DNA of 64,000 bases from an uncultured Nitrospiraceae bacterium (GTDB lineage Bacteria; UBA10199; SBBF01): NCBI GenBank assembly GCA_964592255.1, contig CAZQCI010000001.1, positions 15,885-79,884 of the forward strand. The letters run 5' to 3'. The notes under the pieces are model-generated. The model did not search any database. It had not been told where the DNA came from and was given only the letters and a program-made list of their open reading frames with translations. The position numbers were made by a program, and so were the translations under genes. This document shows positions 34,698 through 49,152 of this stretch, piece by piece. How positions within the stretch are numbered: the first letter of the stretch is position 1; each line of letters opens with the position of its first letter.

Positions 34698-34739
34698 ATT
34701 GAAGAGTCAACGACTAATATAATTGCCAAAATGTAAAAT

Positions 34740-35258
34740 TTGGATTCTAATTCAGGTATGAATAAAATCATCCCTGTACTCATTATATTTTTCCACCTTC
34801 TTTTTAGTTCTATCTCTATGGCAGAGGGCCTATGCACGCCAGAAGAACACACTTATTTTTCTTGTCCCATCAAAAGTGGTAAAACCCTTTCCGTCTGCGG
34901 TCAAAAAACGGCGGACAGCCTTAGCTGGCTGCAATACCGTTTTGGAACAAAACAAAAAATAGAACTAAGCTACCCAACAGATGCAAAAAACATTAAACCG
35001 GGGGAAGTCTTTTCCTTTTCTCATTATATGCGGGGTTCTCCTTTTACTCAAAACGATAATTTAAGTTTTACCAACGGTAGCACAACCTACAATGTCACCG
35101 TAGATTTAGAAGACGCTTCCGTAACCGATGATGGAAAAGAGCTTGTCAAATATGGTGTAGAAATCACCACGACTGAAAAACCAGACAACCCTATTTTTAT
35201 CTCGTGTACCAAACCCGTCACCAATCATTTGGACGAACTACAAGGGCTAATTCCTTAA
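34740..35258 (+). CDS. Hypothetical secreted protein (172 aa) immediately upstream of the Pel-like operon
   Basis: Signal-like N-terminus …MNKIIPVLIIFFHLLFSSISMAEG-LC. The lipobox is atypical. Cys-containing mature N-terminus (CTPEEHTYFSC). Possibly starts at the internal ATG (MNKIIP). Confidence 0.4.
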   Translation: MDSNSGMNKIIPVLIIFFHLLFSSISMAEGLCTPEEHTYFSCPIKSGKTLSVCGQKTADSLSWLQYRFGTKQKIELSYPTDAKNIKPGEVFSFSHYMRGSPFTQNDNLSFTNGSTTYNVTVDLEDASVTDDGKELVKYGVEITTTEKPDNPIFISCTKPVTNHLDELQGLIP

Positions 35259-35268
35259 GGAGAGTACC

Positions 35269-35637
35269 ATGGCGGATGCTAAAACCATTCTTGTTGTAGA
35301 AGATGAATATTTTTTGGCCGAATCTATCAAAGATCGTTTGGAATACTTAGGCTACCAAGTTTTACTGGCAGAACATGGTGAAGCCGCTCTTGAATTATTA
35401 AAAGAAAAAAAATGCAATTTGATTCTCTTAGACATCATCATGCCCGTTTTAGATGGCTGGGATACCCTCAAAGCCATTCGACAAAATTCTCAACTCAAAA
35501 ACTTGCCTGTCATTATGGTTTCAGCCAGAGCTACGGATCAAGACAAAGAAAAATCTCTGGCCTACGGAGCCAATGATCACCTGAACAAACCTTTCTCTTG
35601 GGATGATATGGCAGCCCTCATTAAAAAACACCTATGA
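35269..35637 (+). CDS. Stand-alone response-regulator receiver domain (CheY-like), first gene of the Pel-like operon
   Basis: Acidic pocket VVEDE. Phospho-acceptor D in LILLDIIMP. Conserved S (MVSA) and K (NKPF). 122 aa with no output domain. GGAG RBS. ATGA overlap with the next gene. Confidence 0.8.
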   Translation: MADAKTILVVEDEYFLAESIKDRLEYLGYQVLLAEHGEAALELLKEKKCNLILLDIIMPVLDGWDTLKAIRQNSQLKNLPVIMVSARATDQDKEKSLAYGANDHLNKPFSWDDMAALIKKHL

Positions 35638-36449
35638 GACAATGGCTTCTTGTTTTATGCCTGCTTTTCCTCACATCGTGTTCTTCACGTCTGCATTGGG
35701 TTATTTATTATGGATCCACACCGCCTAGTACACCGCTCAAAAAAGTCGATTGGGCTATTTTAGAACCAGACAATCTCCAGCCTTCTTCACTTAAAAATCC
35801 GAAAATTAAAACGTTAGGTTACATCAGCTTGGGTGAAATTAATAGCTCCCGTTCTTATTGGCCCAAAATTCAAAACTCTTCTTTTATTGTAGAAGAAAAC
35901 CCCAACTGGCCTGGAGCTTACCGTGTAGATATTCGCTCGACGGACTGGCAAGACTTATTGATCCAACAAATTCTTCCTTCCATATTAAATCAAGGATTTG
36001 ATGGTTTTTTCTTAGACACAGTAGATACAGCACTGTATCTGCAAGAAAAAGATCCCGTAAAATATTCACATTCTCAAGAAGCCATGGTGAATTTTATTAA
36101 GAAAATACGTGCTTCTTTTCCCAAAGCCCTCATTGTTCCCAATAATGGTCTCGAAATGCTGCCGGAAATCGGAAAAAATATCGACGCCATATTGGTAGAA
36201 GACCTTTATACCCGTTATGACTTCAACAACAAAACTGTCATCGCCACTCCAACTGAAGTAAGTCTAACCAAGGAAAAAATGTTGGATAAATTTACACACG
36301 ATTTCCACAAGCCCGTATTGGCTTTACTCTATGAAAATTCCACTAATACCCCTCTCACAAAACATGCTATAAGTAAGTGTAAAGAAAAGGATTATAGCTG
36401 GGCTGTCACAACAGTGGATCTGATGCACTGGAACGTGCCTACCCATTAG
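35634..36449 (+). CDS. Lipoprotein TIM-barrel glycoside hydrolase of the GH114/GH166 type (PelA hydrolase-domain-like)
   Basis: Lipobox FLTSCSS. Motif GFDGFFLDTVD is typical of the GH114/TM1410-like endo-alpha-1,4-hexosaminidase fold. 271 aa. 6-nt gap to the next gene. Confidence 0.55.
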   Translation: MRQWLLVLCLLFLTSCSSRLHWVIYYGSTPPSTPLKKVDWAILEPDNLQPSSLKNPKIKTLGYISLGEINSSRSYWPKIQNSSFIVEENPNWPGAYRVDIRSTDWQDLLIQQILPSILNQGFDGFFLDTVDTALYLQEKDPVKYSHSQEAMVNFIKKIRASFPKALIVPNNGLEMLPEIGKNIDAILVEDLYTRYDFNNKTVIATPTEVSLTKEKMLDKFTHDFHKPVLALLYENSTNTPLTKHAISKCKEKDYSWAVTTVDLMHWNVPTH

Positions 36450-36455
36450 CCATTT

Positions 36456-38525
36456 TTGAAAAATTTTATTCAACAATTGATTATTGTATTTTCTCTGTTG
36501 CTCCCTGCTCTTTCGGGTTTAGCAGCCTCTCAAGAGCCTCTTTCACGGAAAGTATTAGCGCTTTATGAATCCAGCGTTTATTCAGATCCAGCCTCTACAC
36601 TCATTCATCGGACGGCAGAACTCACATTAAACTATTTGGGCCTACAAGTGGAATACCGCCCCGTGGAAAGCCCCCTTCCTTCTGATGATGACATGCAGCC
36701 TTACATAGGCTTCATCACTTGGTTTACCAATGAAAATGCCGTCCCCCATCCGGATCTTTACTGTCAATGGATGCGCCATCAGATTCAAACAGGAAAAAAA
36801 ATAGTTCTCTTAGAAAACTGGGGATTGTTTCAAGACAAAAAACGTCATCTCAGCCCCATATGTGAAGACACTTTTAAAAAATTGGGAATAGAATACAAAG
36901 GGGAATACGCCGACAACCCCTACTTTTTAGAAGTAGCGGAACAAAAAACAGAATGGGTAGAATTTGAACGAAAAATTAATTTTACCGAAAACCTCACTTA
37001 CAGTTGGTTTAAAGCCATTGATCCCCAAAGTACCGTCTACCTTAAAGTTCGTAGAACGGACATGGTGAATAGTGAATCAGACATGGTTGTCACCACCCCT
37101 CAAGGTGGCTTTGTAGCACCAACCTGGCTCATCTATAACGACACAGAAACGAATCATATTCAATGGCGTGTTAATCCTTTTTTATTTTTTGAAAAAGCGT
37201 TTGACGTACCAGACTGGCCGCGCCCCGATACAACAACTTTAAATGGAAACCGAATTTTTTATAGCCACATTGATGGTGATGGCATTTTTAATATTTCTAA
37301 AATTGATCAAAAATCATTTTCTGGAGAAGTGATCTTAAATGAAATTTTAAAGCAATACCCCTCACTCCCTATCACACTCGGCCTCATCACAGGCTACATG
37401 GACTTGAAGGAATTCAACAATCCACGCACTCAAAAGCTGTACCGCGAGATGATAGAATTGCCGCAAGTAGAAATTGCCTCGCATGGCTATGCCCATCCTT
37501 TGGTTTGGAAAACAGGAGAACTGTCTTTAAAAATTCCAGATTACAACATGAATGCCGAAAAAGAAATCAACGGATCTATTCAGCAACTCAACCAAATGAT
37601 TGAGTCTTTAGGAATCACGTATAAAAAAACCTCTCTCTTTCAATGGACAGGAGACTGCACCCCTTCCGCCATACAAATTAAAATGGCAGAACAAACGGGG
37701 TTACCTAATCTTAATGGAGGTGGTGGGCGCCAAGATGACAATTTCTATGGTTTAGCGGCCCTCTACCCCATCGGCATTACAAAAGAAGGCGCCCATCAAA
37801 TTTATGCCGGGGCTTTTAACGAAAATAATTTCACCAATCTGTGGAGCGGCCCTTATTATGGGTTTGCCCACTTACTCTCCACATTGGACAAAACCGAAAA
37901 CCCTCTACGCCTTAAAGCCGTAGATGTTTATTATCATTTTTACAGTGGGGAACGTTGGGCTTCACTAAAAGCTGTGAAAAAAATTTATGATTCCTTTTTA
38001 AACAAAAATATCTTCCCCATTCATGCCAGCCAATACGCCAGAATTGCTGAAGGATTTTACACAACTGAAATTAAGCGCATTGCCAGTGGTCATTTTGTCG
38101 TTAGTAAAAATGGAGTCTTACAAACCATTCGTTTTGACCATGAAAAAAGAAATCTAGACCTCTCTCAATCGACAGGTGTTCTAGGTTTTATTCACGATAA
38201 AAATGCCCTGTATGTTTCATTAGATGAATCGGAAAACCACGTCATTCAACTATCAGAGGCTCAGCCCTCTTCTCCTTACTTAATTCAATCTACTTTTCAG
38301 GTTTCGCAACTAACAAAAAAAGTGGAGGGCTTTTCGTTTCAAAAACAAGGATGGTTAAAAAGTCATTGCCTTTGGGGAGGGCTAAGACCCAACCACAGTT
38401 ACCGAGTCATAACACAAGATGAAACTCAACGATTAACAACTTCTTCAACAGGGGAATTGAAAATAGACTTTCAAAAAAGTGAAAATGGATTAACCCCCGT
38501 CTTAGTAAGGGTTGAAGCAGAATAA
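36456..38525 (+). CDS. Periplasmic polysaccharide deacetylase (CE4/NodB-homology) multidomain protein, equivalent to the C-terminal two-thirds of PelA
   Basis: Signal peptide MKNFIQQLIIVFSLLLPALSGLAA. CE4 motifs FYSHIDGDG (MT1-like) and EIASHGYAHP (HxxxHP, MT2). 689 aa. Overlaps the PelB-like gene. Confidence 0.6.
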   Translation: MKNFIQQLIIVFSLLLPALSGLAASQEPLSRKVLALYESSVYSDPASTLIHRTAELTLNYLGLQVEYRPVESPLPSDDDMQPYIGFITWFTNENAVPHPDLYCQWMRHQIQTGKKIVLLENWGLFQDKKRHLSPICEDTFKKLGIEYKGEYADNPYFLEVAEQKTEWVEFERKINFTENLTYSWFKAIDPQSTVYLKVRRTDMVNSESDMVVTTPQGGFVAPTWLIYNDTETNHIQWRVNPFLFFEKAFDVPDWPRPDTTTLNGNRIFYSHIDGDGIFNISKIDQKSFSGEVILNEILKQYPSLPITLGLITGYMDLKEFNNPRTQKLYREMIELPQVEIASHGYAHPLVWKTGELSLKIPDYNMNAEKEINGSIQQLNQMIESLGITYKKTSLFQWTGDCTPSAIQIKMAEQTGLPNLNGGGGRQDDNFYGLAALYPIGITKEGAHQIYAGAFNENNFTNLWSGPYYGFAHLLSTLDKTENPLRLKAVDVYYHFYSGERWASLKAVKKIYDSFLNKNIFPIHASQYARIAEGFYTTEIKRIASGHFVVSKNGVLQTIRFDHEKRNLDLSQSTGVLGFIHDKNALYVSLDESENHVIQLSEAQPSSPYLIQSTFQVSQLTKKVEGFSFQKQGWLKSHCLWGGLRPNHSYRVITQDETQRLTTSSTGELKIDFQKSENGLTPVLVRVEAE

Positions 38526-41499
38526 AATGAATTACTCACGGACTCAAATTATTATCTTCTTTATCGCCATTGTGGTTCTAGGATGGCTTTTATACCCGCG
38601 TACGCTTTTTCTTGGATTTATTTATGAAGGCTCAGCTTCATTAGAAAAATCAGAAAATTATTATCAACAGTATTTGGCTAAAAAACCTTTCAACCGCTTT
38701 GCCACATTACGTTTGGTCGATATCTACGAACGTATGGGGGAACCTGAAAAAGCCACTCCTCTCTATACCAATCTCTATTCCCATCGCCTTCACGATTGGG
38801 ATTTGGCTCAAAAATATTTAAAGCATTTAGAAAACAAAGGCGACTTTGAAGCCGCCTATAAACTAAGACAAGAAATAGCCCATAACTTTTTTGACGAAAA
38901 AAATATCCCACGAGAAAAAATTCAAGATCTGCTGACGCAAGCATTTAAATATGCTCAATGGAAACAAAAAACGGAAGAGGCTTATCAGCTCTTACAAAAA
39001 ATAGCGGATATTTCAAAAAATCCAGACGCCACTCTTCAAACCCTACATTGGCTCGATTTAGGCCTGAAACATACCGATAAAATCATCGCACGGCTCAAAA
39101 AACAATTGGCTGAAAACCCACATGATAAAAATAGTCGCCGTGAACTTATTTCTGTCCAAATGGCATCTAAAAACTTTGAAGAAGCTTACCAAACTATTGA
39201 CGAGGGATTAACGCAAGATCCGCGTGACACGACTTTACTCAAACAACGTATTCAACTTGATGCAATAACTGGAAAATCGGAAATAGAAATCAAAGATACG
39301 CTCAAAATACTCAATCTGGCGACATTATCTTCAGAGGAGACAATCTATTTCAAGCTACACTTAGTATTTTTGTATCAAAAAATAGGACGTCTGGAAGAAG
39401 CGCTCCCTCTTTTTGAAGAACTCACAAAGACCAACCCTAAAAATAAGGACATTTGGAAAAACTGGGCTTTTGTCTTAACACAGGATCAAAAAATAGATGC
39501 GGCTCTCAAGGTATTGGAAAAAAGTCGGTTTTATTTTCCTGATGATCTGGACTTAGAAGAACAACAAGTCTCTCTTCTTCTCTACCAGAAAAAAGACACC
39601 TCTTCCGTTGCTTTGTATGACGATTTTCTAAAGAAAAAACCCAAACCTTCTTTTGCCTTAGACGTGGCCTATCTTCTACTGGATCAAAAAGAAAAAAACA
39701 AAGCCCAAAACTGGTTAAACCGTGCATTAAAACTATTCCCCGAAAATGATAAACTCATCTTTTTGCTAGCGGATGTGAATGTTGAATTAGGTTTGCTTGA
39801 AGATGCTGATTTTTTGCTCACTTCTTATCTAAAAAAACACCCAAACAATTCTACAGCTCATTTAAAAACCGCTCATTTAGCAGCTATACGCTTTCAATTT
39901 GCCGCGTTAGAGCAACATTTACAGCAATACTTAAGCCTTGAAAAAAATAAGTTCCAATCTCTCATCGCAGCCGGACAAGAATATTTGTTCGCAGGCCTTA
40001 ATTCACAAGCGCAAAACTATTTCCAAAAAGCCCGTGACCAAAACCCGAAAGACCCGACTCCCTGGTTTTGGCTATCTGCAGCTTATTGGAGTCAAAACTC
40101 AAAAAAGTCCTCACAACAATCAGCCCATCAGGCAAGTCTCCTTTTCTCTAAAAAGAAAAGTAATACTACTTGGGAACGATTAAGCCTTAAAGCTCAAGCA
40201 ATGGCTCGTTTTGATGAAGACATACGCCAAAAATATAAAAAAGCCTTGGAGCGCCATCCAAAAGATTTTGATTTTTACGCTGACTTTGCGGACGTGCTTC
40301 TTATGGAACAAGAAAACACCTTGGCTGCCGAAATTATTAAAACAATCGAGCAAAAATTTTCACAAAGACCAGAGGATGTCATTTCTCTTAAAGTGCGTTT
40401 AGCTCAACAGCAACACGATTGGAAAGAAGTGATTGATTTACTTAATAATCACCCAAAACCTTATTTAAGAGACACAAAAACTTTGGCGGAAGCTTACGCC
40501 GCCAATGGGCAATGGAAAAAAGCCATGGACTATTATCAGCAATTATCCTCATCCTCCGATGAGGAAGCTCAGAAAAAACTAGGTTTAACCGAGGAAGCAG
40601 CCAAACTCCATGCCGAATATGATCATCGCATTGGTCAAAACTTTCATTATCTGGATTTAGGAAACGATACCATCATTGAAGAGGGAATTTTCACTAAACA
40701 TTACTTAAATGAATCACTCAAGATAACGGGTGAATTTGTCTGGGGGCACTATCAATCCCCCGGAATTGATTTTGAGGGAAACGCAGAATATGGTAGGATC
40801 CTTCTTTCAAAACAATGGGGGCCCCAATGGCAACTTGAAGGAGGTCTGGGGTTTGGGGTGAGTGAGCAACATGAAACAGTGTCACCTTTATTAGGAATAC
40901 GCTACAAACCTTGGGAGAAACTTTTATTGGAAATGCAAGGAAGTCTTCGGGAATTAAGAACGGATCTTCCCCAATCGGTAGCCCGGGGCGCACTAAAAAG
41001 CCAAGTGTCTTTTCAGTGGAATTGGCAAGCTACTTCCCGTTTTAATTTTTCCGGCACTTATCGTCTGGGAAAAAATAGCTTAAGCGGAGGAGAAAAAGCT
41101 TGGGAACAAAGTTTTGAACCGTCGCTTTCGTTTCTATTGCTGCGCCAACCCGATGTATTTATAGGCTACCAGTTCAGCCTGGTTCATGTAGATGACAATG
41201 ACGGTTTTTTAAGAAAACTCCCCTTGCTACCCGATGTGAGGGCGCATTATTTAACAGCTGGGTTTAATCATCCCATCACCCCAACCTTTAAGGTGGCAAG
41301 TGGCTTTTTTCTGGGTGAAGACACGGCAAGAAACCTTCATTTTTTTGAAGGCGATTTATGGGGGGCCAATGCCTCCTTTGTGTGGAACCTCACCTCATGG
41401 TTAGATATGACAGGTTTTTATAGTTACGGCAGAGAAACTCTCACTGAAAGCGCCGGTCAGAGCCATAATCTCAACTTCGGCTTTTCAGGACATTGGTAA
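38512..41499 (+). CDS. pelB: PelB-like outer-membrane export protein: N-terminal TM anchor, long TPR array, C-terminal beta-barrel porin
   Basis: TM IIIFFIAIVVLGWLLYP. About 700 aa of TPR-like helical repeats. C-terminal region of alternating amphipathic beta strands ending …NLNFGFSGHW (aromatic terminus typical of OM barrels). Alternative start ATG 38527. Confidence 0.7.
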   Translation: MKQNKMNYSRTQIIIFFIAIVVLGWLLYPRTLFLGFIYEGSASLEKSENYYQQYLAKKPFNRFATLRLVDIYERMGEPEKATPLYTNLYSHRLHDWDLAQKYLKHLENKGDFEAAYKLRQEIAHNFFDEKNIPREKIQDLLTQAFKYAQWKQKTEEAYQLLQKIADISKNPDATLQTLHWLDLGLKHTDKIIARLKKQLAENPHDKNSRRELISVQMASKNFEEAYQTIDEGLTQDPRDTTLLKQRIQLDAITGKSEIEIKDTLKILNLATLSSEETIYFKLHLVFLYQKIGRLEEALPLFEELTKTNPKNKDIWKNWAFVLTQDQKIDAALKVLEKSRFYFPDDLDLEEQQVSLLLYQKKDTSSVALYDDFLKKKPKPSFALDVAYLLLDQKEKNKAQNWLNRALKLFPENDKLIFLLADVNVELGLLEDADFLLTSYLKKHPNNSTAHLKTAHLAAIRFQFAALEQHLQQYLSLEKNKFQSLIAAGQEYLFAGLNSQAQNYFQKARDQNPKDPTPWFWLSAAYWSQNSKKSSQQSAHQASLLFSKKKSNTTWERLSLKAQAMARFDEDIRQKYKKALERHPKDFDFYADFADVLLMEQENTLAAEIIKTIEQKFSQRPEDVISLKVRLAQQQHDWKEVIDLLNNHPKPYLRDTKTLAEAYAANGQWKKAMDYYQQLSSSSDEEAQKKLGLTEEAAKLHAEYDHRIGQNFHYLDLGNDTIIEEGIFTKHYLNESLKITGEFVWGHYQSPGIDFEGNAEYGRILLSKQWGPQWQLEGGLGFGVSEQHETVSPLLGIRYKPWEKLLLEMQGSLRELRTDLPQSVARGALKSQVSFQWNWQATSRFNFSGTYRLGKNSLSGGEKAWEQSFEPSLSFLLLRQPDVFIGYQFSLVHVDDNDGFLRKLPLLPDVRAHYLTAGFNHPITPTFKVASGFFLGEDTARNLHFFEGDLWGANASFVWNLTSWLDMTGFYSYGRETLTESAGQSHNLNFGFSGHW

Positions 41500-41503
41500 A
41501 GAT

Positions 41504-41869
41504 ATGGGAAAAAAAATATTGTTAATCGACGATGAAGTAGATTTTACTGAAGTGGTGGGCACCTTGCTGCGTTTTCATGATTTCGACGTAGACACTATCA
41601 ATGAGCCTCTTCTAGCTCCTGAAGCTATTAATAAAAATAATTATGATCTCATTGTTAGCGATTTGATGATGCCCGATATCAACGGCTTTGAATTGGTCGA
41701 GAAGATTAGGACCATGCCGCGCTACAAAGACACCCCAATCATTACCTTGTCGGCAAAACTCCTTAACGATGAAGAAAGAAAACAATTGCTCCATCATGGT
41801 GTTCATTGTTTATCTAAACCATTCGAGCCCAGTGGATTGGTAGATCAAATTTGTCAATTACTTGGCTAA
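41504..41869 (+). CDS. Second stand-alone CheY-like receiver domain, between the pelB- and pelD-like genes
   Basis: LLIDDE acidic pocket. D in DLIVSDLMMP. S in ITLSAK. K in LSKPF. 121 aa, no output domain. The start lies 4 nt after the pelB stop. Confidence 0.8.
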   Translation: MGKKILLIDDEVDFTEVVGTLLRFHDFDVDTINEPLLAPEAINKNNYDLIVSDLMMPDINGFELVEKIRTMPRYKDTPIITLSAKLLNDEERKQLLHHGVHCLSKPFEPSGLVDQICQLLG

Positions 41870-41905
41870 AGACCGTCTCTTCTTTTGTCATAAAAAGACA
41901 AAAGA

Positions 41906-43294
41906 ATGAGTAGGGAGAAAATTTCGGATTTGAAACGATACTCTTATTTGTACGAAATTCCTCTTTTTTACTTGGTTTTATGTGGAATCAATTTCTACCT
42001 GGTGCCGGAATATCCTTCTTTTTTTGGCATTGATCCCCATCCTTATTGGTTAGGCATTGTATTATTTGCCTTCCGGTATGGATTAGTCCCCTCACTCATC
42101 TCAGGCGTGTTATCAGCCCTATTATTTTTATTCGGAATATTCTTATTTGGAGAACGCTATCTTTTTGAAGACGCCGTTTTCTTCCTTCTACCCTCTTTCT
42201 TCATCATTGTTTCAACTTGCCTAGGTTTCTTAACACGCCAAACACATAAAAAAATAATCCAATTCCAAGACGCCGAAATAAGCGCCAGTCAAAAGGAAAA
42301 ACATTTAAACGAAGAAATAAAAACCCTAACCGAAATTAATAATAACCTTGAAAAAAGAATAGTCACTCGTATGTCAACCTTGGTGACTTTATATGAAGGA
42401 GCCAGGAGGCTTGAAACTCACGATATCGAAGAGCTTTACAAATCAGGCTTGGACTTTATCACTAAAACATTAGGAGCCGATGAAGCAGCCATTTATCTTA
42501 AACAAAACAATGAATGGCATTTAAAAGAAAGCATTGGCTGGAAAGAGTACGAAAAGCATCCAAAAATATTAAAATGGTCCGAGGGCCTAACCGGACTTGC
42601 AGGATCTACGAATAAGATTGTCAGCATTCGTGATTTTATGGGTCACAGCCCTAAAGAACTCCCTAATATATTTAGCGACGCACTAGTAGCCGCTCCTTTA
42701 CGCTTAGGGGAGCATGGCAAAGTCATCGGTGTAATTGCCATTCAACGAATGCCTTTTTTAAGTTTCACTAGCTCTTCAGTCAACCTCTTCTCTTTTCTCA
42801 TGAACTGGATTTCACGTTCCGTAGGAGAAGCTTCGTATATTCAAGAGTTAAAAGAACAAGAAATTATCGATCCAGAACTTCAGGTATATTCTCATTCTTA
42901 TTTTTTATCTCGTGCACGGCAAGAATTCTTACGATCAAAAAACTATTATTTACCTCTTGGGCTTGGAGTTGTCTCCTTCGATCAAACCACTCCTTTATCT
43001 GCCAAAGAAAATAAACGCCTTCTCTTAGCCATAGCCCAGCTCCTTAAACAAAACATACGTGAAATGGATGTGGTTGCACGCTTTCCTTCTTCAGAACACC
43101 CTTTTTCTATTCTCTTCATCACAGCTAGCCCTAAACAAACCGAAGAGATGACTGAAAAAATAACGCATGCTTACCAGGAATTAAAATTAGTCGATGCTAA
43201 AGGTAAGCCCCTGCCTCTTATTAAAATTAAATTGTCTCATTTTTCCCCACAAGTGGCCGATATCGATCAAATGCTTCGAGAGGCTCTCATATGA
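41906..43294 (+). CDS. pelD: PelD-like inner-membrane c-di-GMP receptor (4 TM + GAF + degenerate GGDEF)
   Basis: Four N-terminal TM helices. GAF-like region (LGADEAAIYLKQNNEWHL…VIGVIAIQRMPF). C-terminal degenerate cyclase-like domain. An RxxD (REMD) lies five residues upstream of where a degenerate GG(D/E)EF would sit (ARFPS…). ATGA overlap with the next gene. Confidence 0.6.
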   Translation: MSREKISDLKRYSYLYEIPLFYLVLCGINFYLVPEYPSFFGIDPHPYWLGIVLFAFRYGLVPSLISGVLSALLFLFGIFLFGERYLFEDAVFFLLPSFFIIVSTCLGFLTRQTHKKIIQFQDAEISASQKEKHLNEEIKTLTEINNNLEKRIVTRMSTLVTLYEGARRLETHDIEELYKSGLDFITKTLGADEAAIYLKQNNEWHLKESIGWKEYEKHPKILKWSEGLTGLAGSTNKIVSIRDFMGHSPKELPNIFSDALVAAPLRLGEHGKVIGVIAIQRMPFLSFTSSSVNLFSFLMNWISRSVGEASYIQELKEQEIIDPELQVYSHSYFLSRARQEFLRSKNYYLPLGLGVVSFDQTTPLSAKENKRLLLAIAQLLKQNIREMDVVARFPSSEHPFSILFITASPKQTEEMTEKITHAYQELKLVDAKGKPLPLIKIKLSHFSPQVADIDQMLREALI

Positions 43295-44328
43295 TGCATG
43301 CACGATTCATGTTTTTTTGGGGTTTAAGTGGTCTCTGTGAGTTTCCGTTTCTCCAAACTCTATTAGGTTTTCCTTATTTTTTTAAAGGGCACACTCCCTT
43401 TGTGGTCTTACTGCATGTGACGGGATCCGTATTGCTCTTTTTTTGTGTCCCCAAAGGAGAAGGCTGGTTTCATCCGGCACGCATGGGCGCAAAAACCTTT
43501 TTCTACATGGGGCTTTTTTTGCCGTTTGTAGGATGGATCATTTCCGGAATCTTATACATTCATTTCATCAAAGAAAAAGACAAACCCTATACTATAAACC
43601 AGGAAGATGATGATAATTTTTTCATGGACTCATTTCCTTCTTTATCCCTTTCTATTCAGCTTCCACGGCGAAATCGTCTTCAAAAACAATTGGATTTTAT
43701 TCCTTTAGTAGACATCATCCGAGGACCGGAAGAGATAGAGCTTAAACGTGGAGCTATCGAAAAACTTGCTCAAATTAATACCCCAGAAACAATCGACCTA
43801 CTTTTCTCTCTACGTAGCGATCCAGTCATGGAAGTGCGTTTCTATGCTACGTCTGCTTTGGGAAAAATCAAAAAAGAATTTGATGAACGTCTTGATGCTG
43901 CCAAAGAAGAAATAAAAAAAACAAGCCCCAGCAGTAAGGCACGACTCAACTTAGCTCAGGCTTACTTAGAATATGCCCAATCTCATCTTTTGGATAAAGT
44001 AACAACTTCCGCCTACGAAACAGAAGCTCTGTTTCACTTGCAGGAAGAGCTCAACAACCCCTTCCCTTCCCTACAAGCCTTTTGGATGCTCATTGATTTA
44101 TACAAAAATCATCGTCGATGGGAGCAAGCATTAGATTTACTAGAAAAATTGGAGCACCACCCGGAAACAGAAATTATTTTAGTTTTAAAAAGTAAAATTG
44201 AAATTATTTATTTGATGCAACGCTATCAAGAAATACCGGTTTTATTAGAAAAACTGACTCAAAAAAATAAATTACCAGACGAATGGACCGCTCTAGCACA
44301 ATGGTGGGGGGCCCATGTTGAACATTAA
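43291..44328 (+). CDS. pelE: PelE-like inner-membrane protein (N-terminal TM helices plus HEAT/TPR-like helical repeats)
   Basis: Hydrophobic N-terminal 100 aa. Helical repeats follow (PETIDLLFSLRSDPVMEVRFYATSALGKI; LNLAQAYLEYAQSH). Position between pelD and pelF. 345 aa. Confidence 0.5.
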   Translation: MMHARFMFFWGLSGLCEFPFLQTLLGFPYFFKGHTPFVVLLHVTGSVLLFFCVPKGEGWFHPARMGAKTFFYMGLFLPFVGWIISGILYIHFIKEKDKPYTINQEDDDNFFMDSFPSLSLSIQLPRRNRLQKQLDFIPLVDIIRGPEEIELKRGAIEKLAQINTPETIDLLFSLRSDPVMEVRFYATSALGKIKKEFDERLDAAKEEIKKTSPSSKARLNLAQAYLEYAQSHLLDKVTTSAYETEALFHLQEELNNPFPSLQAFWMLIDLYKNHRRWEQALDLLEKLEHHPETEIILVLKSKIEIIYLMQRYQEIPVLLEKLTQKNKLPDEWTALAQWWGAHVEH

Positions 44329-46279
44329 AAAAATTAAAGAACTCATTCATGGACCCAGTGAAGACGGTCGATTTGAAGCCTTTTTAGAGCTCTTTGAATC
44401 GGAAGATCCCAAAGCTTTGGAGGAAATACATCATATACTCACATCTCCCGACCCAGTGATTAAAATTAAATTCTTGCGCTTCTTATCACACGCAGAATCA
44501 GAAAAATCTTTGCCATTAATTGTTACATGCTTAAAAGATAAAAATCCCATCGTCATCAACGTGGCTCGAAAGGTTTTTGAAAAAAATACTTTTCCTTTAA
44601 AGTTTCGAAGCCTTCTTCCATTTCTCAACGCCCCTCACGATGATTTATTTACTTATGCGGTAAAAGCGTTAGCTCAGGCGGGTATCACCGAAATTATTGA
44701 ACCTTTATTTGAACAGCTAAAAAGAGTGGGGGAAGAAAGGCAGCTGATTATTTTATCGGTTTTACGTTGGCTTCCCGAAGAAAGAATGATTCCTGTTCTC
44801 CTGTCTTATCTTAAATCAAAAAATGACAATATCCGCTATAAAACTTTAATGGTCTTTGGAAGTCTATTGAGTGCAGGCCATAGTTCGGCACGCAAACATC
44901 TACTTCCCTCTCTCAAGGATAACAATGCCTCAATTCGGCAAGCTGTTTTATGGTGTTTAAAAAGAGCCCCTTCAAAAAAAGATTATTCAATTTTTTTAAA
45001 TTACTCACAAAAAGATCCAGATCCTTTAGTCAGACAAGAAGCTCTAATAGGGCTGAGTACTTTTCCCCCACGAAAAATTATTTTGCCTATTCTTTCTCTC
45101 ATGGCGACTGAAAAATCACGCATGGTTTTATTGAAAGGAGAAGGACTTCTTTTGGGAATAAACATTCAAGATCTGGAATCCGAGTTAAGTAAAGCGCTTC
45201 AATCCAAAAATACCAAAATTAGAGAAAGAGCCCAACTGTTAATGTCGGAATTAGGACGCAATTCGGAAAGTTTTTGTAAAAAATTACTCGAAAAAGCCAT
45301 GCGGATCAAATCACCTAAAGAAAGACTCACTTTAATTGAAGCACTAGGCAATACACAAAGTCACAATGCCATTGCCTGGCTGGAAACCCTGCTCAACACA
45401 GATCCCTTAACATCCTATGCAGCTATTTCGGCCTTGTTAAAAATTTGGGGCGAAAACCCACAACAACCCATTCTTAAATATTTACAACATCAAAAATCAG
45501 CCATTACCCGCCAAAACGTACTCAAGCATCTGGTTAAAAAAAATATCCCTTTGAAAAGCAATACTGATTTAGAAAAATATCTGATGGGTCTTTTAGAAGA
45601 CGCCAATTTAAATATTCGATATCTAGCAACTCAAGCCTTGCTCAAGATCAACAGCTCAATGCTGCTACACCCCTTAATGAAAACATTACTTAACGAGTCT
45701 GACCCCACAACTTTTCAACTTTTGCGACAAAGTATTTTATCTTTACTAGCAAAAAACCCCCAATTAATCGGTCCAATGTTAAAATTGTATTATCAAGACA
45801 GTAAGGCTCTTCATACTTTAATCAACCTGATGAGTGAAATCGACTTGGAAGGATCTCATTCTTTAGAACTATTAATCATTCTCTTATCCCCACCTTTCAT
45901 GCTGGATAACTCGCCTTTGCTTCAAGAAGCGGTCCGTTTCATCCTCATCCAATATCTTCAAGATAAAATTCGCTTAGAAGATGTGGTTGAAAGCGTATCT
46001 ACTATTCCACAACGGGATTTGATTTTTGATTGTTTATATACTCAACTAGAAAATCAATCTAGCTCTATGCGCCCTATTTTTTCTAAATCTAAAATTGAAA
46101 CCTGGCTTCATAACGACTGCCTGCTCTCCCCTTCCTTATTACGGCTACTCGCTTTAAGTCAGGATGAAAAATTAATCGCTGTATTAGTTCAATTCACATC
46201 ACAAAAACCTTTAGCACCATACAAAGCAGAATTGATCCATACTCTTAATCGGATGATTTGGCAGGAGGCCTGCTCATGA
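44315..46279 (+). CDS. Large HEAT-repeat (PBS-lyase-type HEAT-like) protein embedded in the Pel-like operon
   Basis: 654 aa. More than 10 repeats of about 30 aa with the pattern D/NPxVRxxAxxALxxIG (e.g. DPVIKIKFLRFLS, NASIRQAVLWCLKRAP, DPLVRQEALIGLS, NLNIRYLATQALLKI). No TM or signal. Overlaps both neighbours (14 and 22 nt). Confidence 0.6.
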   Translation: MLNIKKIKELIHGPSEDGRFEAFLELFESEDPKALEEIHHILTSPDPVIKIKFLRFLSHAESEKSLPLIVTCLKDKNPIVINVARKVFEKNTFPLKFRSLLPFLNAPHDDLFTYAVKALAQAGITEIIEPLFEQLKRVGEERQLIILSVLRWLPEERMIPVLLSYLKSKNDNIRYKTLMVFGSLLSAGHSSARKHLLPSLKDNNASIRQAVLWCLKRAPSKKDYSIFLNYSQKDPDPLVRQEALIGLSTFPPRKIILPILSLMATEKSRMVLLKGEGLLLGINIQDLESELSKALQSKNTKIRERAQLLMSELGRNSESFCKKLLEKAMRIKSPKERLTLIEALGNTQSHNAIAWLETLLNTDPLTSYAAISALLKIWGENPQQPILKYLQHQKSAITRQNVLKHLVKKNIPLKSNTDLEKYLMGLLEDANLNIRYLATQALLKINSSMLLHPLMKTLLNESDPTTFQLLRQSILSLLAKNPQLIGPMLKLYYQDSKALHTLINLMSEIDLEGSHSLELLIILLSPPFMLDNSPLLQEAVRFILIQYLQDKIRLEDVVESVSTIPQRDLIFDCLYTQLENQSSSMRPIFSKSKIETWLHNDCLLSPSLLRLLALSQDEKLIAVLVQFTSQKPLAPYKAELIHTLNRMIWQEACS

Positions 46280-47736
46280 TCGACGTATGCCTCCTCTTAG
46301 AAGGAACCTATCCTTATGTCGCTGGAGGAGTATCCACGTGGGTTCATCAACTTATTTCTTCCATCAAAGATTTACGCTTTGGTATTTTATTCATTGCACC
46401 TTATTCAGACCCTACACGCACTCTAAAATATGAAGTACCCAACCATGTGCTCTATCTGAAAGAAATTTATTTACACGACTACAACTTAGAATTACGACCC
46501 AAAAGAAAACCAACCTCACAAGACTATGAACTGATTAAAAAATTTTATGAAAATGTTCAAAAAGAGGATTTCAAGTTATTTGCTAACTTTGTTCGCCTCT
46601 TCCAAGGAGAAAACTCATGTTTCGGCATCCAAAATCTTTTTAATTCGGAGCAAACCTGGGATTTGCTTACTTATTTTTACGAACGATATGCGGGTGATAT
46701 TTCTTTCATTGATTATTTTTGGACTTGGCGAGGTACCCATTTACCCTTGATGCAAATGCTCACTGCAGAAATTCCACGAGCTAAAATTTACCATGCCGTC
46801 TCAACCGGTTATGCAGGTCTTATTGGAGCCATTGCTAAACAATTCAATCAAGGAAAGTTTTTTTTAACAGAACACGGGCTCTATACTCACGAGCGCATGC
46901 TAGAAATCTCACAAGCCTCTTGGATTTATGAACAGAAAAAAAGAGATTTCAAAGCCGAAAAAGGATTTTCTTTTTTTAAGCAATGGTGGATTACCATTTT
47001 TGATACTCTCAGTCGTTTAGCCTACGATTCAGCCGACAATATTTATACTCTATTTGAAGGCAACAAAAGACGGCAAATTTTACAAGGCGCACAAGCCGAT
47101 AAAATCACAGTCATCCCTAACGGCATTGATGTTATCGCCTTTGAAAAAATTGAGCGGAGTAAAAAAACACACCCACAAATAGGTCTTATTGGACGAGTTG
47201 TCACAATTAAAGATATCAAAACATATATTCAAGCAGCCCGTATTGTTCTTCAAAAGTTACCGACAGCCTCTTTTTACATCATTGGCCCTACGGATGAAGA
47301 GCAAGAATATTTTGAAGAATGTAAAATGATGGTGGAAGCCCTGCACATGGAAAATAATATTATCTTCACGGGGCGAGTAGACCCAAAAACCTATTATGCG
47401 TTTCTGGACTTAGTAGTCCTTACCAGTATTTCAGAAGCCCAACCTTATGTCATTTTAGAAGCCAATGCCGTAGGCATACCGGTAGTAGCCAGCGATGTGG
47501 GGGCTTGCCGAGAAATGCTGGAAGGAAGCAGTTCTTTGGATCGGACCTTAGGAGTGAGTGGTAAAATCACAGAAGTATCCAACCCTGACGATACAGCTAA
47601 AGCCATTGTAGAGATTATGACCAACGAAACCCTGTATCGGCATATGAGCCAAACGGGAAAACAAAGAGTGAAACAATATTATGACGATCGTGATTTGATC
47701 AGCAAATACATAAATATTTACGAAAAAAACTTATAA
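46258..47736 (+). CDS. pelF: PelF-like cytoplasmic GT4 glycosyltransferase with an N-terminal DUF3492-type domain
   Basis: N-terminus MIDVCLLLEGTYPYVAGGVSTWVHQLI matches the PelF/DUF3492 start. C-terminal GT4 region (EAQPYVILEANAVGIPVVASDVGACREML). Confidence 0.8.
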   Translation: MAGGLLMIDVCLLLEGTYPYVAGGVSTWVHQLISSIKDLRFGILFIAPYSDPTRTLKYEVPNHVLYLKEIYLHDYNLELRPKRKPTSQDYELIKKFYENVQKEDFKLFANFVRLFQGENSCFGIQNLFNSEQTWDLLTYFYERYAGDISFIDYFWTWRGTHLPLMQMLTAEIPRAKIYHAVSTGYAGLIGAIAKQFNQGKFFLTEHGLYTHERMLEISQASWIYEQKKRDFKAEKGFSFFKQWWITIFDTLSRLAYDSADNIYTLFEGNKRRQILQGAQADKITVIPNGIDVIAFEKIERSKKTHPQIGLIGRVVTIKDIKTYIQAARIVLQKLPTASFYIIGPTDEEQEYFEECKMMVEALHMENNIIFTGRVDPKTYYAFLDLVVLTSISEAQPYVILEANAVGIPVVASDVGACREMLEGSSSLDRTLGVSGKITEVSNPDDTAKAIVEIMTNETLYRHMSQTGKQRVKQYYDDRDLISKYINIYEKNL

Positions 47737-47745
47737 CTTATTCTT

Positions 47746-49152
47746 ATGGCTGGCATTGGCTTCAGATTACAAAAACTTCTTGCGGGTGAGTCCTACACTG
47801 ACTTGATACGGGCTTACTTATACTCTTCTGTTATCACTTCAGGACCTATGATCATCGTCATGATCACTTTAATGCTGACTAACTCTCTCATTAGTCATAA
47901 CCTAGATTTAGAAGCAGCTAAAAATATACTCCCACTCATCATTTACGTTTATGCTTTTTCCATGGTTGGCGTAGGGCCTTTTGTCTATGTCGTCACCAGA
48001 AATATTGCAGATAAATATTATTTGAAAGAAATAGAATCTTTCACTCCCATTTACTTTGCAACATTGGAAATTGTATTTATATCTCAAACTTTACTCGCCT
48101 TGCCTTTTCTTGTCTTTTCTTCTTTTGATTTCACCACTAAATGGGTCGTACTTTGTCTCTATCTTCTAGTAAGCGGAATTTGGGTAGCCATGCTTTTTCT
48201 TTCTGCCGCCAGAAGTTACTTGTGGATTGTAGGAGGCTTTATTTTTGGAGGCCTAGCCGGGCTAGCCTTTTCCTGGTTTTTAAGTCGGATAGAGGGGCCT
48301 CTTGGTTTTATTAAGGGCTATACGCTAGGCCAAGGAGTCACTTTTTTAATTTTATGCCTGCGTATTTTTAAAGAGTTCGGTTATCGCTTTAACCATGATT
48401 ATGGTTTTCTACTTTATTTCAAACGTTACAATTCTTTGGCCTGGGTTGGTTTTTTTTATTATGCCGGTATCTGGGTCGATAAATTTATATTTTGGTTTTT
48501 TGGACCCGAAAGCAACATGGTTCATGGTTTAAAAATTTATAATAATTATGACACCCCTCTTTTCTTATCATTCATCAGTGTCATTCCTTCCATGGCTTTT
48601 TTTCTCATTCAAATGGAAACCAACTTTGTACGGCATTACCATTCTTACTACAAAGCCATACGCGAGCGTGGTTCCCTGCTTCTCATCAGAGAAAAAAAGA
48701 AAAAAATCATCGAAACTCTCAGCCAGCATTTTCAAAAATTTGCCATTCTACAGGGGCTTTTTACAGCCGTAATCATCCTATTTATTGTTCCATTATCTGA
48801 AGCCCTTGGGCTTAACCCTTATCAAGTAGGCATTCTACGGATCAGCCTGTTAGGATCTTACTTACTCATGGGTTATGTGATGGTACTTAATATTTTATTT
48901 TATTTTGAACTACAAAAAGAAGCGTTTTGGATTTCTGCCATTTTCTTTTTCGGAAATGCCCTCTTTACTTTTGCCACTTTAAAAATTGGATTTGCCTCTT
49001 ACGGTTTTGGATATACTTTAGCCTCTTTTGTAAGTGTCATGGTAGGCTTTATCGTATTAAATCGTCGGTTAGAAAAACTGAACTGCTTAACCTTTATGAA
49101 TCAACCTATTTTAGTCCCTCAGTTTAAATTAGAAAATGAAGAGCAAAACTAA
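47746..49152 (+). CDS. pelG: PelG-like polysaccharide exporter (MATE/MOP-like, 12 TM)
   Basis: N-terminus MAGIGFRLQKLLAGESYTDLIRAYLYSSVITSGPMI resembles the conserved PelG start. 468 aa, polytopic. Confidence 0.7.
   Translation: MAGIGFRLQKLLAGESYTDLIRAYLYSSVITSGPMIIVMITLMLTNSLISHNLDLEAAKNILPLIIYVYAFSMVGVGPFVYVVTRNIADKYYLKEIESFTPIYFATLEIVFISQTLLALPFLVFSSFDFTTKWVVLCLYLLVSGIWVAMLFLSAARSYLWIVGGFIFGGLAGLAFSWFLSRIEGPLGFIKGYTLGQGVTFLILCLRIFKEFGYRFNHDYGFLLYFKRYNSLAWVGFFYYAGIWVDKFIFWFFGPESNMVHGLKIYNNYDTPLFLSFISVIPSMAFFLIQMETNFVRHYHSYYKAIRERGSLLLIREKKKKIIETLSQHFQKFAILQGLFTAVIILFIVPLSEALGLNPYQVGILRISLLGSYLLMGYVMVLNILFYFELQKEAFWISAIFFFGNALFTFATLKIGFASYGFGYTLASFVSVMVGFIVLNRRLEKLNCLTFMNQPILVPQFKLENEEQN

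What the first reader, a model, noticed from the sequence alone, without database searches (positions are those of the whole stretch)
35634..38525. PelA functions split into a GH114/166-like lipoprotein and a separate CE4 deacetylase protein
In the canonical system the hydrolase and deacetylase are domains of one periplasmic PelA. Here a 271-aa lipoprotein (motif GFDGFFLDTVD) is followed 6 nt later by a 689-aa secreted protein. The second protein carries the CE4 motifs (HIDGDG, SHGYAHP) and extra domains.
Lipid anchoring of the hydrolase alone could change where the polymer is trimmed.
Basis: partly seen in the sequence, partly recalled or inferred. Interest (0 to 1): 0.5.

Follow-up and report, generated by a model that had tools for sequence, protein, structure and literature searches.

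The report
Two-gene PelA in a pel operon
In this biofilm-polysaccharide (pel) operon, the enzyme that is one bifunctional protein in Pseudomonas is encoded as two adjacent genes, a lipid-anchored sugar-chain cutter and a separately exported deacetylase; this is real, but it is a common and little-described arrangement rather than a rarity.

Summary
ORF1 (35634-36449, 271 aa) is a lipoprotein and a PelA-hydrolase-type barrel that keeps both catalytic residues. ORF2 (36456-38525, 689 aa) starts 6 nt later, has its own signal peptide, and matches the remaining three domains of PelA (mixed alpha/beta, deacetylase, beta-rich). All seven deacetylase catalytic residues are conserved. That deacetylase family is now called CE21, not CE4.

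The two ORFs are in the same frame, separated by one TAG, so there is no frameshift. The split is genuine. ORF2's signal peptide is conserved in homologues and is absent from the one fused relative (L001).

Among 80 species-level genomes with a related deacetylase gene, none is fused. In 41 a separate hydrolase gene lies directly upstream, and in 6 directly downstream. They come from many outer-membrane-bearing (diderm) phyla, including cultured Azospirillum and Desulfosarcina. Only about one in five stand-alone hydrolases has a lipobox.

A split PelA has been published for Gram-positives. Reviews still describe Gram-negative PelA as bifunctional.

This is a new variant of a known system, of modest interest.

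The parts
35269..35637 (+). Receiver-only response regulator (122 aa). Its stop overlaps the ORF1 start (ATGA). First gene of the operon in this clade.
   Evidence: Pfam Response_reg 1.2e-28. The same gene precedes pelA in L001-L005 and L034.
35634..36449 (+). ORF1 = stand-alone PelA hydrolase (PelA_H), a 271-aa predicted lipoprotein and endo-alpha-1,4-N-acetylgalactosaminidase-type barrel.
35670..35681 (+). Lipobox L-T-S-C (aa 13-16). Cys16 is the predicted acylation site. Only 5 residues separate it from the first barrel strand.
   Evidence: Sequence. In the AF2 model the signal helix is aa 2-14 and the first strand aa 22-25.
36015..36017 (+). ORF1 Asp128 = PaPelA Asp160 (catalytic nucleophile), within the FLDTVD motif.
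   Evidence: Invariant in A2 and A3. Aligned to 5TCB. Role taken from PMC12054363.
36198..36200 (+). ORF1 Glu189 = PaPelA Glu218 (catalytic acid/base).
   Evidence: Invariant. It falls in the column that differs between 5TCB (E) and the E218A variant 5TSY (A).
36447..36455 (+). Junction: TAG stop of ORF1 plus 6 nt (CCATTT) before the TTG start of ORF2. Same frame, no terminator.
36456..38525 (+). ORF2 = PelA lacking the hydrolase domain (PelA_DA, 689 aa). It has its own Sec signal peptide followed by the mixed alpha/beta, CE21 deacetylase and beta-rich domains.
   Evidence: phmmer to 9CGY residues 241-830, 1.3e-68. AF2 pLDDT 88.6. Foldseek to 9CGY: E 1.7e-48, TM 0.78 over 677 columns.
36456..36524 (+). 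ORF2 signal peptide (aa 1-23, MKNFIQQLIIVFSLLLPALSGLA|A).
   Evidence: Sequence. A hydrophobic N-terminal segment is conserved in 69 of 76 D homologues and absent at the junction of fused L001.
36543..37205 (+). ORF2 mixed alpha/beta domain (about aa 30-250), the part that contacts PelB in the P. aeruginosa model.
   Evidence: Secondary structure of the AF2 model. Aligned to 9CGY. PelB contact taken from PMC12022489.
37218..38063 (+). ORF2 CE21 deacetylase domain (about aa 255-536). Catalytic residues: H271, D273, D275, H343, H347, E456, H494.
   Evidence: All seven are invariant in A1. They align to PaPelA H526, D528, D530, H600, H604, E723, H761 through 9CGY (numbering from PMC12022489; positions).
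38067..38522 (+). ORF2 C-terminal beta-rich domain (about aa 538-689).
   Evidence: All-beta in the AF2 model. Included in the 677-column superposition on 9CGY.
38512..41499 (+). PelB (995 aa): N-terminal membrane helix, TPR array, C-terminal barrel ending in ...GFSGHW. Marks the organism as diderm.
   Evidence: TPR families 1e-34 to 1e-12. Sequence. Conserved position in 80 loci.
41906..49152 (+). Rest of the synthase operon: PelD (41906-43294), PelE (43291-44328), HEAT-repeat protein (44315-46279), PelF (46258-47736), PelG (47746-49152).
   Evidence: NCBIfam PelF equivalog 5.2e-149. Pfam PelG 1.2e-120, and GAF plus degenerate GGDEF in PelD.

Best explanation
This is a genuine two-gene version of pelA in a diderm pel operon with the order RR - pelA_H - pelA_DA - pelB - RR - pelD - pelE - HEAT - pelF - pelG.

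Shown: ORF2 carries its own signal peptide, the three non-hydrolase PelA domains, and the full CE21 catalytic set.

Inferred from P. aeruginosa: ORF2 is exported as a soluble periplasmic protein. It docks on the PelB TPR array through its mixed alpha/beta and deacetylase domains. It partially de-N-acetylates the nascent alpha-1,4-GalNAc polymer. The proposed catalytic roles are Asp273 as base, Asp275/His343/His347 as metal ligands, and His494 as acid.

Shown: ORF1 has a lipobox, a PelA_H-type barrel, and the Asp128/Glu189 catalytic pair.

Inferred: ORF1 is exported on its own and acylated at Cys16. It sits on a periplasmic membrane face on a very short tether. Ser at +2 suggests the outer membrane under the E. 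coli sorting rule. There it acts as an endo-alpha-1,4-N-acetylgalactosaminidase that trims Pel, setting chain length and the released fraction.

In P. aeruginosa the isolated hydrolase domain does not bind PelB and reaches the outer-membrane complex only as part of the fused protein. My inference is that the lipid anchor in this organism replaces that covalent tether.

The 6-nt, terminator-free junction suggests the two genes are co-transcribed and translationally coupled.
For: - Operon identity: PelF equivalog 5.2e-149, PelG 1.2e-120, PelD GAF/GGDEF, PelB TPR.
- ORF1 homologue profile scores 136 bits against PaPelA_H, 80 bits against GH191 and 70 bits against the 9EP5 enzyme.
- ORF1 Asp128 and Glu189 are invariant and align to Asp160 and Glu218.
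- ORF2: 1.3e-68 to PtPelA chain residues 241-830; AF2 pLDDT 88.6; Foldseek 1.7e-48, TM 0.78.
- All seven ORF2 catalytic residues are invariant.
- The split is real. Homologous D proteins begin with signal peptides, and 69 of 76 have a hydrophobic N-terminal segment.
- The fused relative P0006/L001 lacks that segment and instead has a short polar linker.
- Junction geometry differs among close relatives, from 4-nt overlaps to 14-16-nt gaps.
- In 80 GTDB species loci, none is fused; 41 have H directly upstream of D and 6 have it directly downstream. All lie in pel operons with PelB.
- No terminator lies between the two ORFs.
- From PMC12022489: isolated PelA_H does not bind PelB, and outer-membrane localisation of PelA needs PelB TPRs 9-14.
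- From PMC9894940: hydrolase activity generates the secreted form of Pel.
Against: - No enzymatic, lipidation or localisation data exist for this organism.
- Only about 10 of 53 stand-alone hydrolases have a lipobox. Anchoring is therefore not required for the split system to work, and the tether-replacement idea may be incidental.
- Lipoprotein sorting rules in this uncultured lineage are unknown.
- ORF2 starts with TTG and has no obvious Shine-Dalgarno sequence.
- PelC, needed for export in P. aeruginosa, is absent. The export end of the machine may therefore work differently from the model I borrow.
Confidence: 0.8

Rival explanations
1. The two proteins reassemble in the periplasm into a stable non-covalent heterodimer that recreates the compact four-domain PelA. 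The split would then be functionally neutral, and the lipid anchor would tether the whole PelA-like complex rather than segregating the hydrolase.
For: - PtPelA is a compact four-domain body (PMC12022489).
- H and D genes are strictly adjacent in 47 or more of about 60 loci that have an H gene. They often overlap by 4 nt, which suggests coupled synthesis.
- A fused form is nested inside the split clade, so fusion and fission seem to be tolerated.
Against: - Twenty of 80 loci have no H gene within 10 kb, and about 9 have it elsewhere or on the other strand.
- H N-termini vary between lipoprotein, soluble and possibly membrane-anchored forms.
- No complex prediction could be run here.
Confidence: 0.3
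2. The split is an artefact or a recent pseudogenising nonsense mutation in a fused pelA. The TAG at 36447-36449 would be a sequencing error or a fresh mutation.
For: - The two ORFs are in the same frame and separated by a single stop codon.
- A close relative (L001) has a 959-aa fused gene in the same operon layout.
Against: - ORF2 begins with a canonical signal peptide that fused L001 lacks.
- ORF1 ends at the same alignment position as other stand-alone hydrolases.
- Relatives L002, L003, L004 and L007 are split, with different junctions and frames.
- None of 80 species loci is fused.
Confidence: 0.02
3. ORF1 is not a Pel-processing enzyme. It would be a GH191/GH114-type galactosaminidase with another substrate, such as foreign Pel or fungal galactosaminogalactan, that merely sits beside the operon.
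For: - Structure searches rank GH191 enzymes level with PelA_H.
- Single-sequence phmmer ranks TM1410 first.
Against: - ORF1 is 45% identical over its full length to the hydrolase domain of the fused PelA of L001.
- The homologue profile prefers PelA_H by 56 bits.
- The gene keeps a conserved position, with translational coupling, inside pel operons across phyla.
- A GH191 enzyme is itself reported active on Pel (PMC12054363).
Confidence: 0.05

Closest known systems
PelA of Pseudomonas aeruginosa / P. thermotolerans (PDB 9CGY, 5TCB; GH166 + mixed alpha/beta + CE21 + beta-rich)
   Same: - All four domains are present, with the same folds and the same catalytic residues.
- The genes sit in the same operon position, just upstream of pelB.
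- The modules predicted to contact PelB (alpha/beta and CE21) are kept together in ORF2.
   Different: - One polypeptide there; two here, each with its own export signal.
- The hydrolase here is a predicted lipoprotein.
- Sequence identity is only about 20-23%.
- The operon here lacks pelC and has two receiver-only regulators and a HEAT-repeat gene.
Bacillus cereus ATCC 10987 PelA_H (BCE_5582) plus PelA_DA (PMC7112168, PMC13254593)
   Same: - Hydrolase and deacetylase are separate proteins encoded in or next to the pel cluster.
- The deacetylase protein has a three-domain layout (alpha/beta, esterase, beta-sandwich).
- The hydrolase modulates biofilm mass rather than being needed for synthesis.
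   Different: - B. cereus is a monoderm with no PelB.
- Its PelA_DA has a transmembrane anchor and founds CE26/CBM114. ORF2 is CE21-type with a cleavable signal peptide, and it gave no PDB sequence match other than PtPelA.
- B. cereus pelA_H is divergently transcribed. Here the two genes lie 6 nt apart on the same strand.
E. coli PgaB (PNAG system)
   Same: An exopolysaccharide-modifying enzyme of a synthase-dependent system that works with a TPR-porin partner (PgaA). It combines deacetylase and hydrolase functions (PMC5933820, PMC9384988). That PgaB is an outer-membrane lipoprotein is from my own knowledge.
   Different: - In PgaB both activities are in one lipoprotein.
- The families (CE4 plus a different hydrolase family) and the substrate (beta-1,6-GlcNAc) differ.
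- Here only the hydrolase carries the lipid anchor.
GH191 enzymes (T. maritima TM1410, Env-GH191; PMC12054363)
   Same: - Stand-alone proteins of about 280 aa with the same modified barrel.
- The same Asp/Glu catalytic pair.
- Env-GH191 acts on Pel.
   Different: - A profile of ORF1 homologues scores 80 bits against TM1410 versus 136 bits against PelA_H.
- ORF1's orthologue in L001 is the N-terminal domain of a fused PelA.

Membership tests
pel exopolysaccharide operon | PelF glycosyltransferase, PelG, PelD (GAF + degenerate GGDEF), PelE, and PelB (TPR + porin) encoded together | tested here: met
   NCBIfam PelF equivalog 497 bits (cut-off 100). Pfam PelG 404 bits. PelD GAF/GGDEF. PelB TPR arrays with a C-terminal ...GFSGHW.
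pel exopolysaccharide operon | PelC outer-membrane lipoprotein | tested here: not met
   jackhmmer seeded with PelC-like lipoproteins finds PelC in 16 related loci. It finds none in the 64-kb window or in clade L001-L008. A receiver-only regulator occupies that slot.
Canonical bifunctional PelA (single four-domain polypeptide) | Hydrolase and deacetylase in one chain | tested here: not met
   A TAG stop at 36447-36449 is followed by a new start and a signal peptide. The same split is conserved in relatives.
GH166 (PelA hydrolase type) | Modified (beta/alpha)8 barrel superposable on PelA_H | tested here: met
GH166 (PelA hydrolase type) | Catalytic Asp (Pa D160) and Glu (Pa E218) | tested here: met
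   Asp128 and Glu189 are invariant in 20- and 27-sequence alignments. They align to the PaPelA residues; the E218A variant 5TSY marks the Glu column.
GH166 (PelA hydrolase type) | Closer to GH166 than to sister families GH191 and GH114 | tested here: inconclusive
GH166 (PelA hydrolase type) | Endo-alpha-1,4-N-acetylgalactosaminidase activity | not testable with these tools
   Needs an enzyme assay.
CE21 (PelA deacetylase type) | (beta/alpha)7 esterase domain flanked by the mixed alpha/beta and beta-rich domains, as in PtPelA | tested here: met
   phmmer 1.3e-68 over chain residues 241-830. Foldseek 1.7e-48, TM 0.78, 677 columns.
CE21 (PelA deacetylase type) | Catalytic set H-x-D-x-D, H-x3-H, Glu, His (Pa H526/D528/D530/H600/H604/E723/H761) | tested here: met
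   H271, D273, D275, H343, H347, E456 and H494 are all invariant in A1 and aligned through 9CGY (roles from PMC12022489).
CE21 (PelA deacetylase type) | Metal-dependent de-N-acetylation of alpha-1,4-GalNAc | not testable with these tools
   Needs an enzyme assay.
Bacterial lipoprotein (signal peptidase II substrate) | Positively charged n-region, hydrophobic core, lipobox [LVI][ASTVI][GAS]C | tested here: met
   MRQWLLVLCLLFLTSC|SS: Arg2, a hydrophobic core, and L-T-S-C at aa 13-16. Acylation itself was not tested.
Sec-exported periplasmic protein (ORF2) | N-terminal signal peptide with an A-x-A-type cleavage site | tested here: met
   MKNFIQQLIIVFSLLLPALSGLA|A. The peak 11-residue hydropathy is 2.78. 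An equivalent segment is present in 69 of 76 homologues.

The most novel reading that the evidence does not exclude
Across diderm bacteria, the two-gene pelA (a stand-alone hydrolase plus a three-domain CE21 protein) is the prevailing arrangement. It may also be the older one. The fused PelA of Pseudomonas and Burkholderia, and sporadic cases such as L001, would then be lineage-specific fusions. Uncoupling the two lets each lineage set where the hydrolase sits (lipid anchor, soluble, membrane helix) independently of the PelB-bound deacetylase. Covalent linkage would therefore not be part of the general Pel modification mechanism.
Probability: 0.4. Interest if true: 0.45.

Novelty: new variant of a known kind. 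Interest (0 to 1): 0.3.

Why it matters
Current descriptions draw a simple line: PelA is bifunctional in Gram-negatives and monofunctional in Gram-positives (PMC7890745). The 2025 structural paper generalised from full-length homologues only, keeping 177 of 1000 BLAST hits (PMC12022489).

This operon and its many relatives show that diderm pel systems with a PelB export protein commonly encode the hydrolase separately. That has three consequences:
- Covalent coupling is not needed for Pel modification.
- These are natural systems in which hydrolysis and deacetylation can be studied, or localised, apart from each other.
- There is an annotation gap. The three-domain deacetylase protein gets no NCBIfam hit. 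It passes Pfam's threshold only for an unrelated-function family (GH57). In RefSeq Azospirillum thermophilum it is called "hypothetical protein".

The finding does not overturn any mechanism, and domain fission and fusion are ordinary evolution, so the interest is modest.

Tried and rejected
- The look-up of encoding contigs on ORF2 (P0001) returned nothing on record.
The closest relatives are MAGs labelled Deltaproteobacteria.
It was redone with A3.
- The afdb50 fold library was unavailable.
- The promoter and terminator scan gave counts no higher than shuffled controls. It was useful only in showing no + strand terminator between the ORFs.
- Literature searches for a described diderm split pelA found none. 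This is absence within the searched library only.
- I considered programmed TAG read-through producing a fused product. I rejected it because the product would carry an internal signal peptide that the natural fusion L001 lacks.
- I considered that the lipoprotein hydrolase might compensate for the missing PelC. I rejected it because L016, L018 and L045 have both a lipobox hydrolase and PelC.
- The Pfam GH57 hit on ORF2 (29.9 bits, aa 293-385) is best read as a resemblance between distantly related seven-stranded barrels around the His-x3-His motif, not as a glycosidase.
Full report
**What is there**

On the + strand, 35269-49152 is a tightly packed operon:
- a receiver-only response regulator (35269-35637);
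- ORF1 (35634-36449, 271 aa);
- ORF2 (36456-38525, 689 aa);
- a 995-aa TPR protein ending in a barrel-like C-terminus, ...GFSGHW (PelB, 38512-41499);
- a second receiver-only regulator (41504-41869);
- PelD (GAF plus degenerate GGDEF);
- PelE;
- a 654-aa HEAT-repeat protein;
- PelF (NCBIfam equivalog, 5.2e-149);
- PelG (Pfam, 1.2e-120).

One detail differs. The two ORFs are in the same frame, separated by TAG plus two codons. A sequencing-derived split would therefore be a nonsense error, not a frameshift.

**ORF1**

It begins MRQWLLVLCLLFLTSC|SS, which gives a positive n-region, a hydrophobic core and a canonical lipobox (L-T-S-C, aa 13-16). In the AF2 model (pLDDT 94.5) the first barrel strand starts at residue 22. 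The lipidated Cys is therefore only about 5 residues from the fold.

Sequence evidence:
- Pfam places it in Glyco_hydro_114 (1.6e-21).
[quoted passage not shown] TM1410 (GH191) scores 80 bits and 9EP5 scores 70 bits.
- In that alignment, ORF1 Glu189 falls in the column that distinguishes 5TCB from its E218A variant 5TSY. Asp128, in FLDTVD, aligns with Asp160.
- Both residues are invariant in two independent alignments.

Fold searches agree on the superfamily but do not separate GH166 from GH191:
- Foldseek gives TM 0.80/0.86 to 5TCB, with E-values tied with TM1410.

I therefore call ORF1 a PelA_H orthologue of GH166/GH191 type. The orthology rests mainly on 45% identity over its full length to the N-terminal domain of a fused PelA (P0006).

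**ORF2**

It starts with a Sec-type signal peptide (MKNFIQQLIIVFSLLLPALSGLA|A). It then aligns to P. thermotolerans PelA (9CGY), chain residues 241-830, at 1.3e-68, which is everything after the hydrolase domain. The AF2 model (pLDDT 88.6) superposes on 9CGY over 677 columns (E 1.7e-48, TM 0.78).

It therefore contains the mixed alpha/beta domain, the esterase barrel and the beta-rich domain, in the PelA arrangement. Counting through the 9CGY alignment gives these equivalences:

| ORF2 | PaPelA |
|---|---|
| H271 | H526 |
| D273 | D528 |
| D275 | D530 |
| H343 | H600 |
| H347 | H604 |
| E456 | E723 |
| H494 | H761 |

This is the full catalytic set defined by Van Loon et al. 2025 (PMC12022489). 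All seven are invariant in alignment A1. That paper makes PelA the founding member of CE21, so "CE4" is outdated.

Two annotation traps apply. NCBIfam gives no hit for ORF2. The only Pfam hit that passes threshold is GH57 (29.9 bits), which I read as a distant barrel resemblance.

**Is the split real?**

Yes, for four reasons.
1. Close homologues of ORF2 are about 680-700 aa and begin with their own signal peptides. A hydrophobic N-terminal segment precedes the conserved R-x-I-L-A-L-Y-D motif in 69 of 76 homologues.
2. One close relative (L001, GCA_005240075.1) has the same operon layout but a 959-aa fused gene. At its junction the signal peptide is replaced by a short polar linker.
3. Relatives L002, L003, L004 and L007 are split with different junctions, including 4-nt overlaps in another frame and 14-16-nt gaps.
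4. ORF1 ends where other stand-alone hydrolases end.

A nonsense artefact would not create a conserved export signal.

**How common is it?**

A scan of one genome per GTDB species returned at least 595 related stretches, of which I examined the best 80. The counts are:

| Arrangement | Loci |
|---|---|
| Fused | 0 |
| Hydrolase gene directly upstream | 41 |
| Hydrolase gene directly downstream (KSB1-type) | 6 |
| Hydrolase gene elsewhere in the locus | 12 |
| No hydrolase gene within 10 kb | 21 (one with too little upstream sequence to judge) |

Two of the 12 "elsewhere" loci are in fact adjacent upstream.

Almost all of these loci lie in pel operons with PelB. They span MAGs labelled Deltaproteobacteria, Elusimicrobia, Auribacterota, KSB1, Nitrospinaceae and Acidobacteria, plus many Alphaproteobacteria. 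Cultured members include Azospirillum oryzae, Desulfosarcina variabilis and Desulfacinum hydrothermale.

In RefSeq Azospirillum thermophilum the pair is annotated "endo alpha-1,4 polygalactosaminidase" plus "hypothetical protein". It is followed by two TPR proteins, a GNA1162-family protein (PelC) and a GAF protein.

The scan pattern came from split-type sequences, so as a control I searched 1.84 billion cluster representatives with the fused P0006. That ranking favours fused proteins. Even so, the top 150 held 87 deacetylase-only proteins, about 40 fused ones, about 13 with other long N-terminal extensions, and 10 fragments.

In a neighbour-joining tree of the deacetylase region, fused L001 nests inside the split clade that contains the window, far from PtPelA. 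Fusion or fission has therefore happened more than once.

**The lipid anchor**

Only about 10 of 53 stand-alone hydrolases have a lipobox. Most have ordinary signal peptides, and a few look like uncleaved anchors. Anchoring is a lineage-level choice, not a property of the split.

**Mechanism**

In P. aeruginosa the following is established:
- the isolated hydrolase domain does not bind PelB;
- PelA reaches the outer-membrane complex through PelB TPRs 9-14;
- hydrolase activity generates the secreted, low-molecular-weight Pel and lowers adherent biomass (PMC9894940).

Transferred to this operon as inference: ORF2 is the PelB-docked deacetylase, and ORF1 is a separately exported, membrane-tethered trimmer. 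In this organism its lipid anchor supplies the localisation that the fused protein gets for free.

The main live rival is that the two proteins reassemble non-covalently into a PelA-like body. I could not test that here.

**Comparison and novelty**

Separate PelA_H and PelA_DA proteins are published for Bacillus cereus and other Gram-positives (PMC7112168). There the deacetylase is membrane-anchored, belongs to a different family (CE26/CBM114, PMC13254593), and works without a PelB.

A 2021 review states that Gram-negative PelA is bifunctional and treats this as the main architectural difference between the two groups (PMC7890745). The 2025 structural study analysed only full-length homologues (177 of 1000 BLAST hits). 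I found no paper describing the diderm split.

The window is therefore one member of a large, database-visible but apparently undescribed variant of a well-known system. It is worth a sentence in a comparative paper and useful as an experimental handle, but it is not surprising in kind.

Noticed in passing
window 41504-41869 (and 38512-43294): The pel operon has no pelC. The slot between pelB and pelD holds a 121-aa receiver-only response regulator. A jackhmmer search seeded with PelC-like lipoproteins finds PelC in 16 related loci but none in the window or in clade L001-L008. Auribacterota loci L016 and L018 have pelB-pelC-RR-pelD.
   Followed up: partly
window 35269-35637: A second receiver-only response regulator (122 aa) is the first gene of the operon. 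Its stop overlaps the hydrolase start (ATGA). It is conserved in L001-L005 and L034.
   Followed up: no
window 44315-46279: A 654-aa HEAT-repeat protein sits between pelE and pelF. It is conserved in this clade and in the Elusimicrobia and Auribacterota loci, and absent from the alphaproteobacterial and KSB1-type operons.
   Followed up: no
window 36456-38525 (aa 293-385): ORF2 passes Pfam's gathering score only for Glyco_hydro_57 (29.9 bits against 21.2) and has no NCBIfam hit. Some homologues carry PF09960 (DUF2194). The RefSeq orthologue in Azospirillum thermophilum is annotated 'hypothetical protein'. This is an annotation gap and a possible source of mislabelling.
   Followed up: partly
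L001 2458-5337: A 959-aa fused PelA in a MAG whose operon layout is identical to the window's. It nests inside the otherwise split clade in the deacetylase-region tree, so it looks like a secondary fusion in which the internal signal peptide was lost.
   Followed up: partly
P0081, P0084, P0087, P0111, P0119, P0154, P0157, P0158: These proteins of 1190-1750 aa carry the PelA deacetylase region at the C-terminus, after a 500-1280-aa N-terminal extension that is not the hydrolase domain. The extension was not identified.
   Followed up: no
L078 4804-12160; also L069, L076, L080: Tandem paralogues of the three-domain deacetylase gene lie in one pel locus. There are up to four in the alphaproteobacterial MAG L078, with the hydrolase gene further upstream.
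   Followed up: no
L023, L024, L031, L038, L044, L053 and others: In many loci PelB is encoded as two consecutive ORFs, a long TPR protein followed by a protein of about 500-600 aa. This matches the pelB fission noted by Bundalovic-Torma et al. 2020. In the window PelB is a single 995-aa protein.
   Followed up: no
window 32844-35258: Directly upstream of the operon lie two genes. One is a 617-aa lipoprotein-like 'choice-of-anchor I' protein (Pfam 1.2e-124) with a Ser/Thr/Gly-rich linker. The other is a 172-aa secreted protein with no family match. They are not conserved upstream of pel in L001.
   Followed up: no
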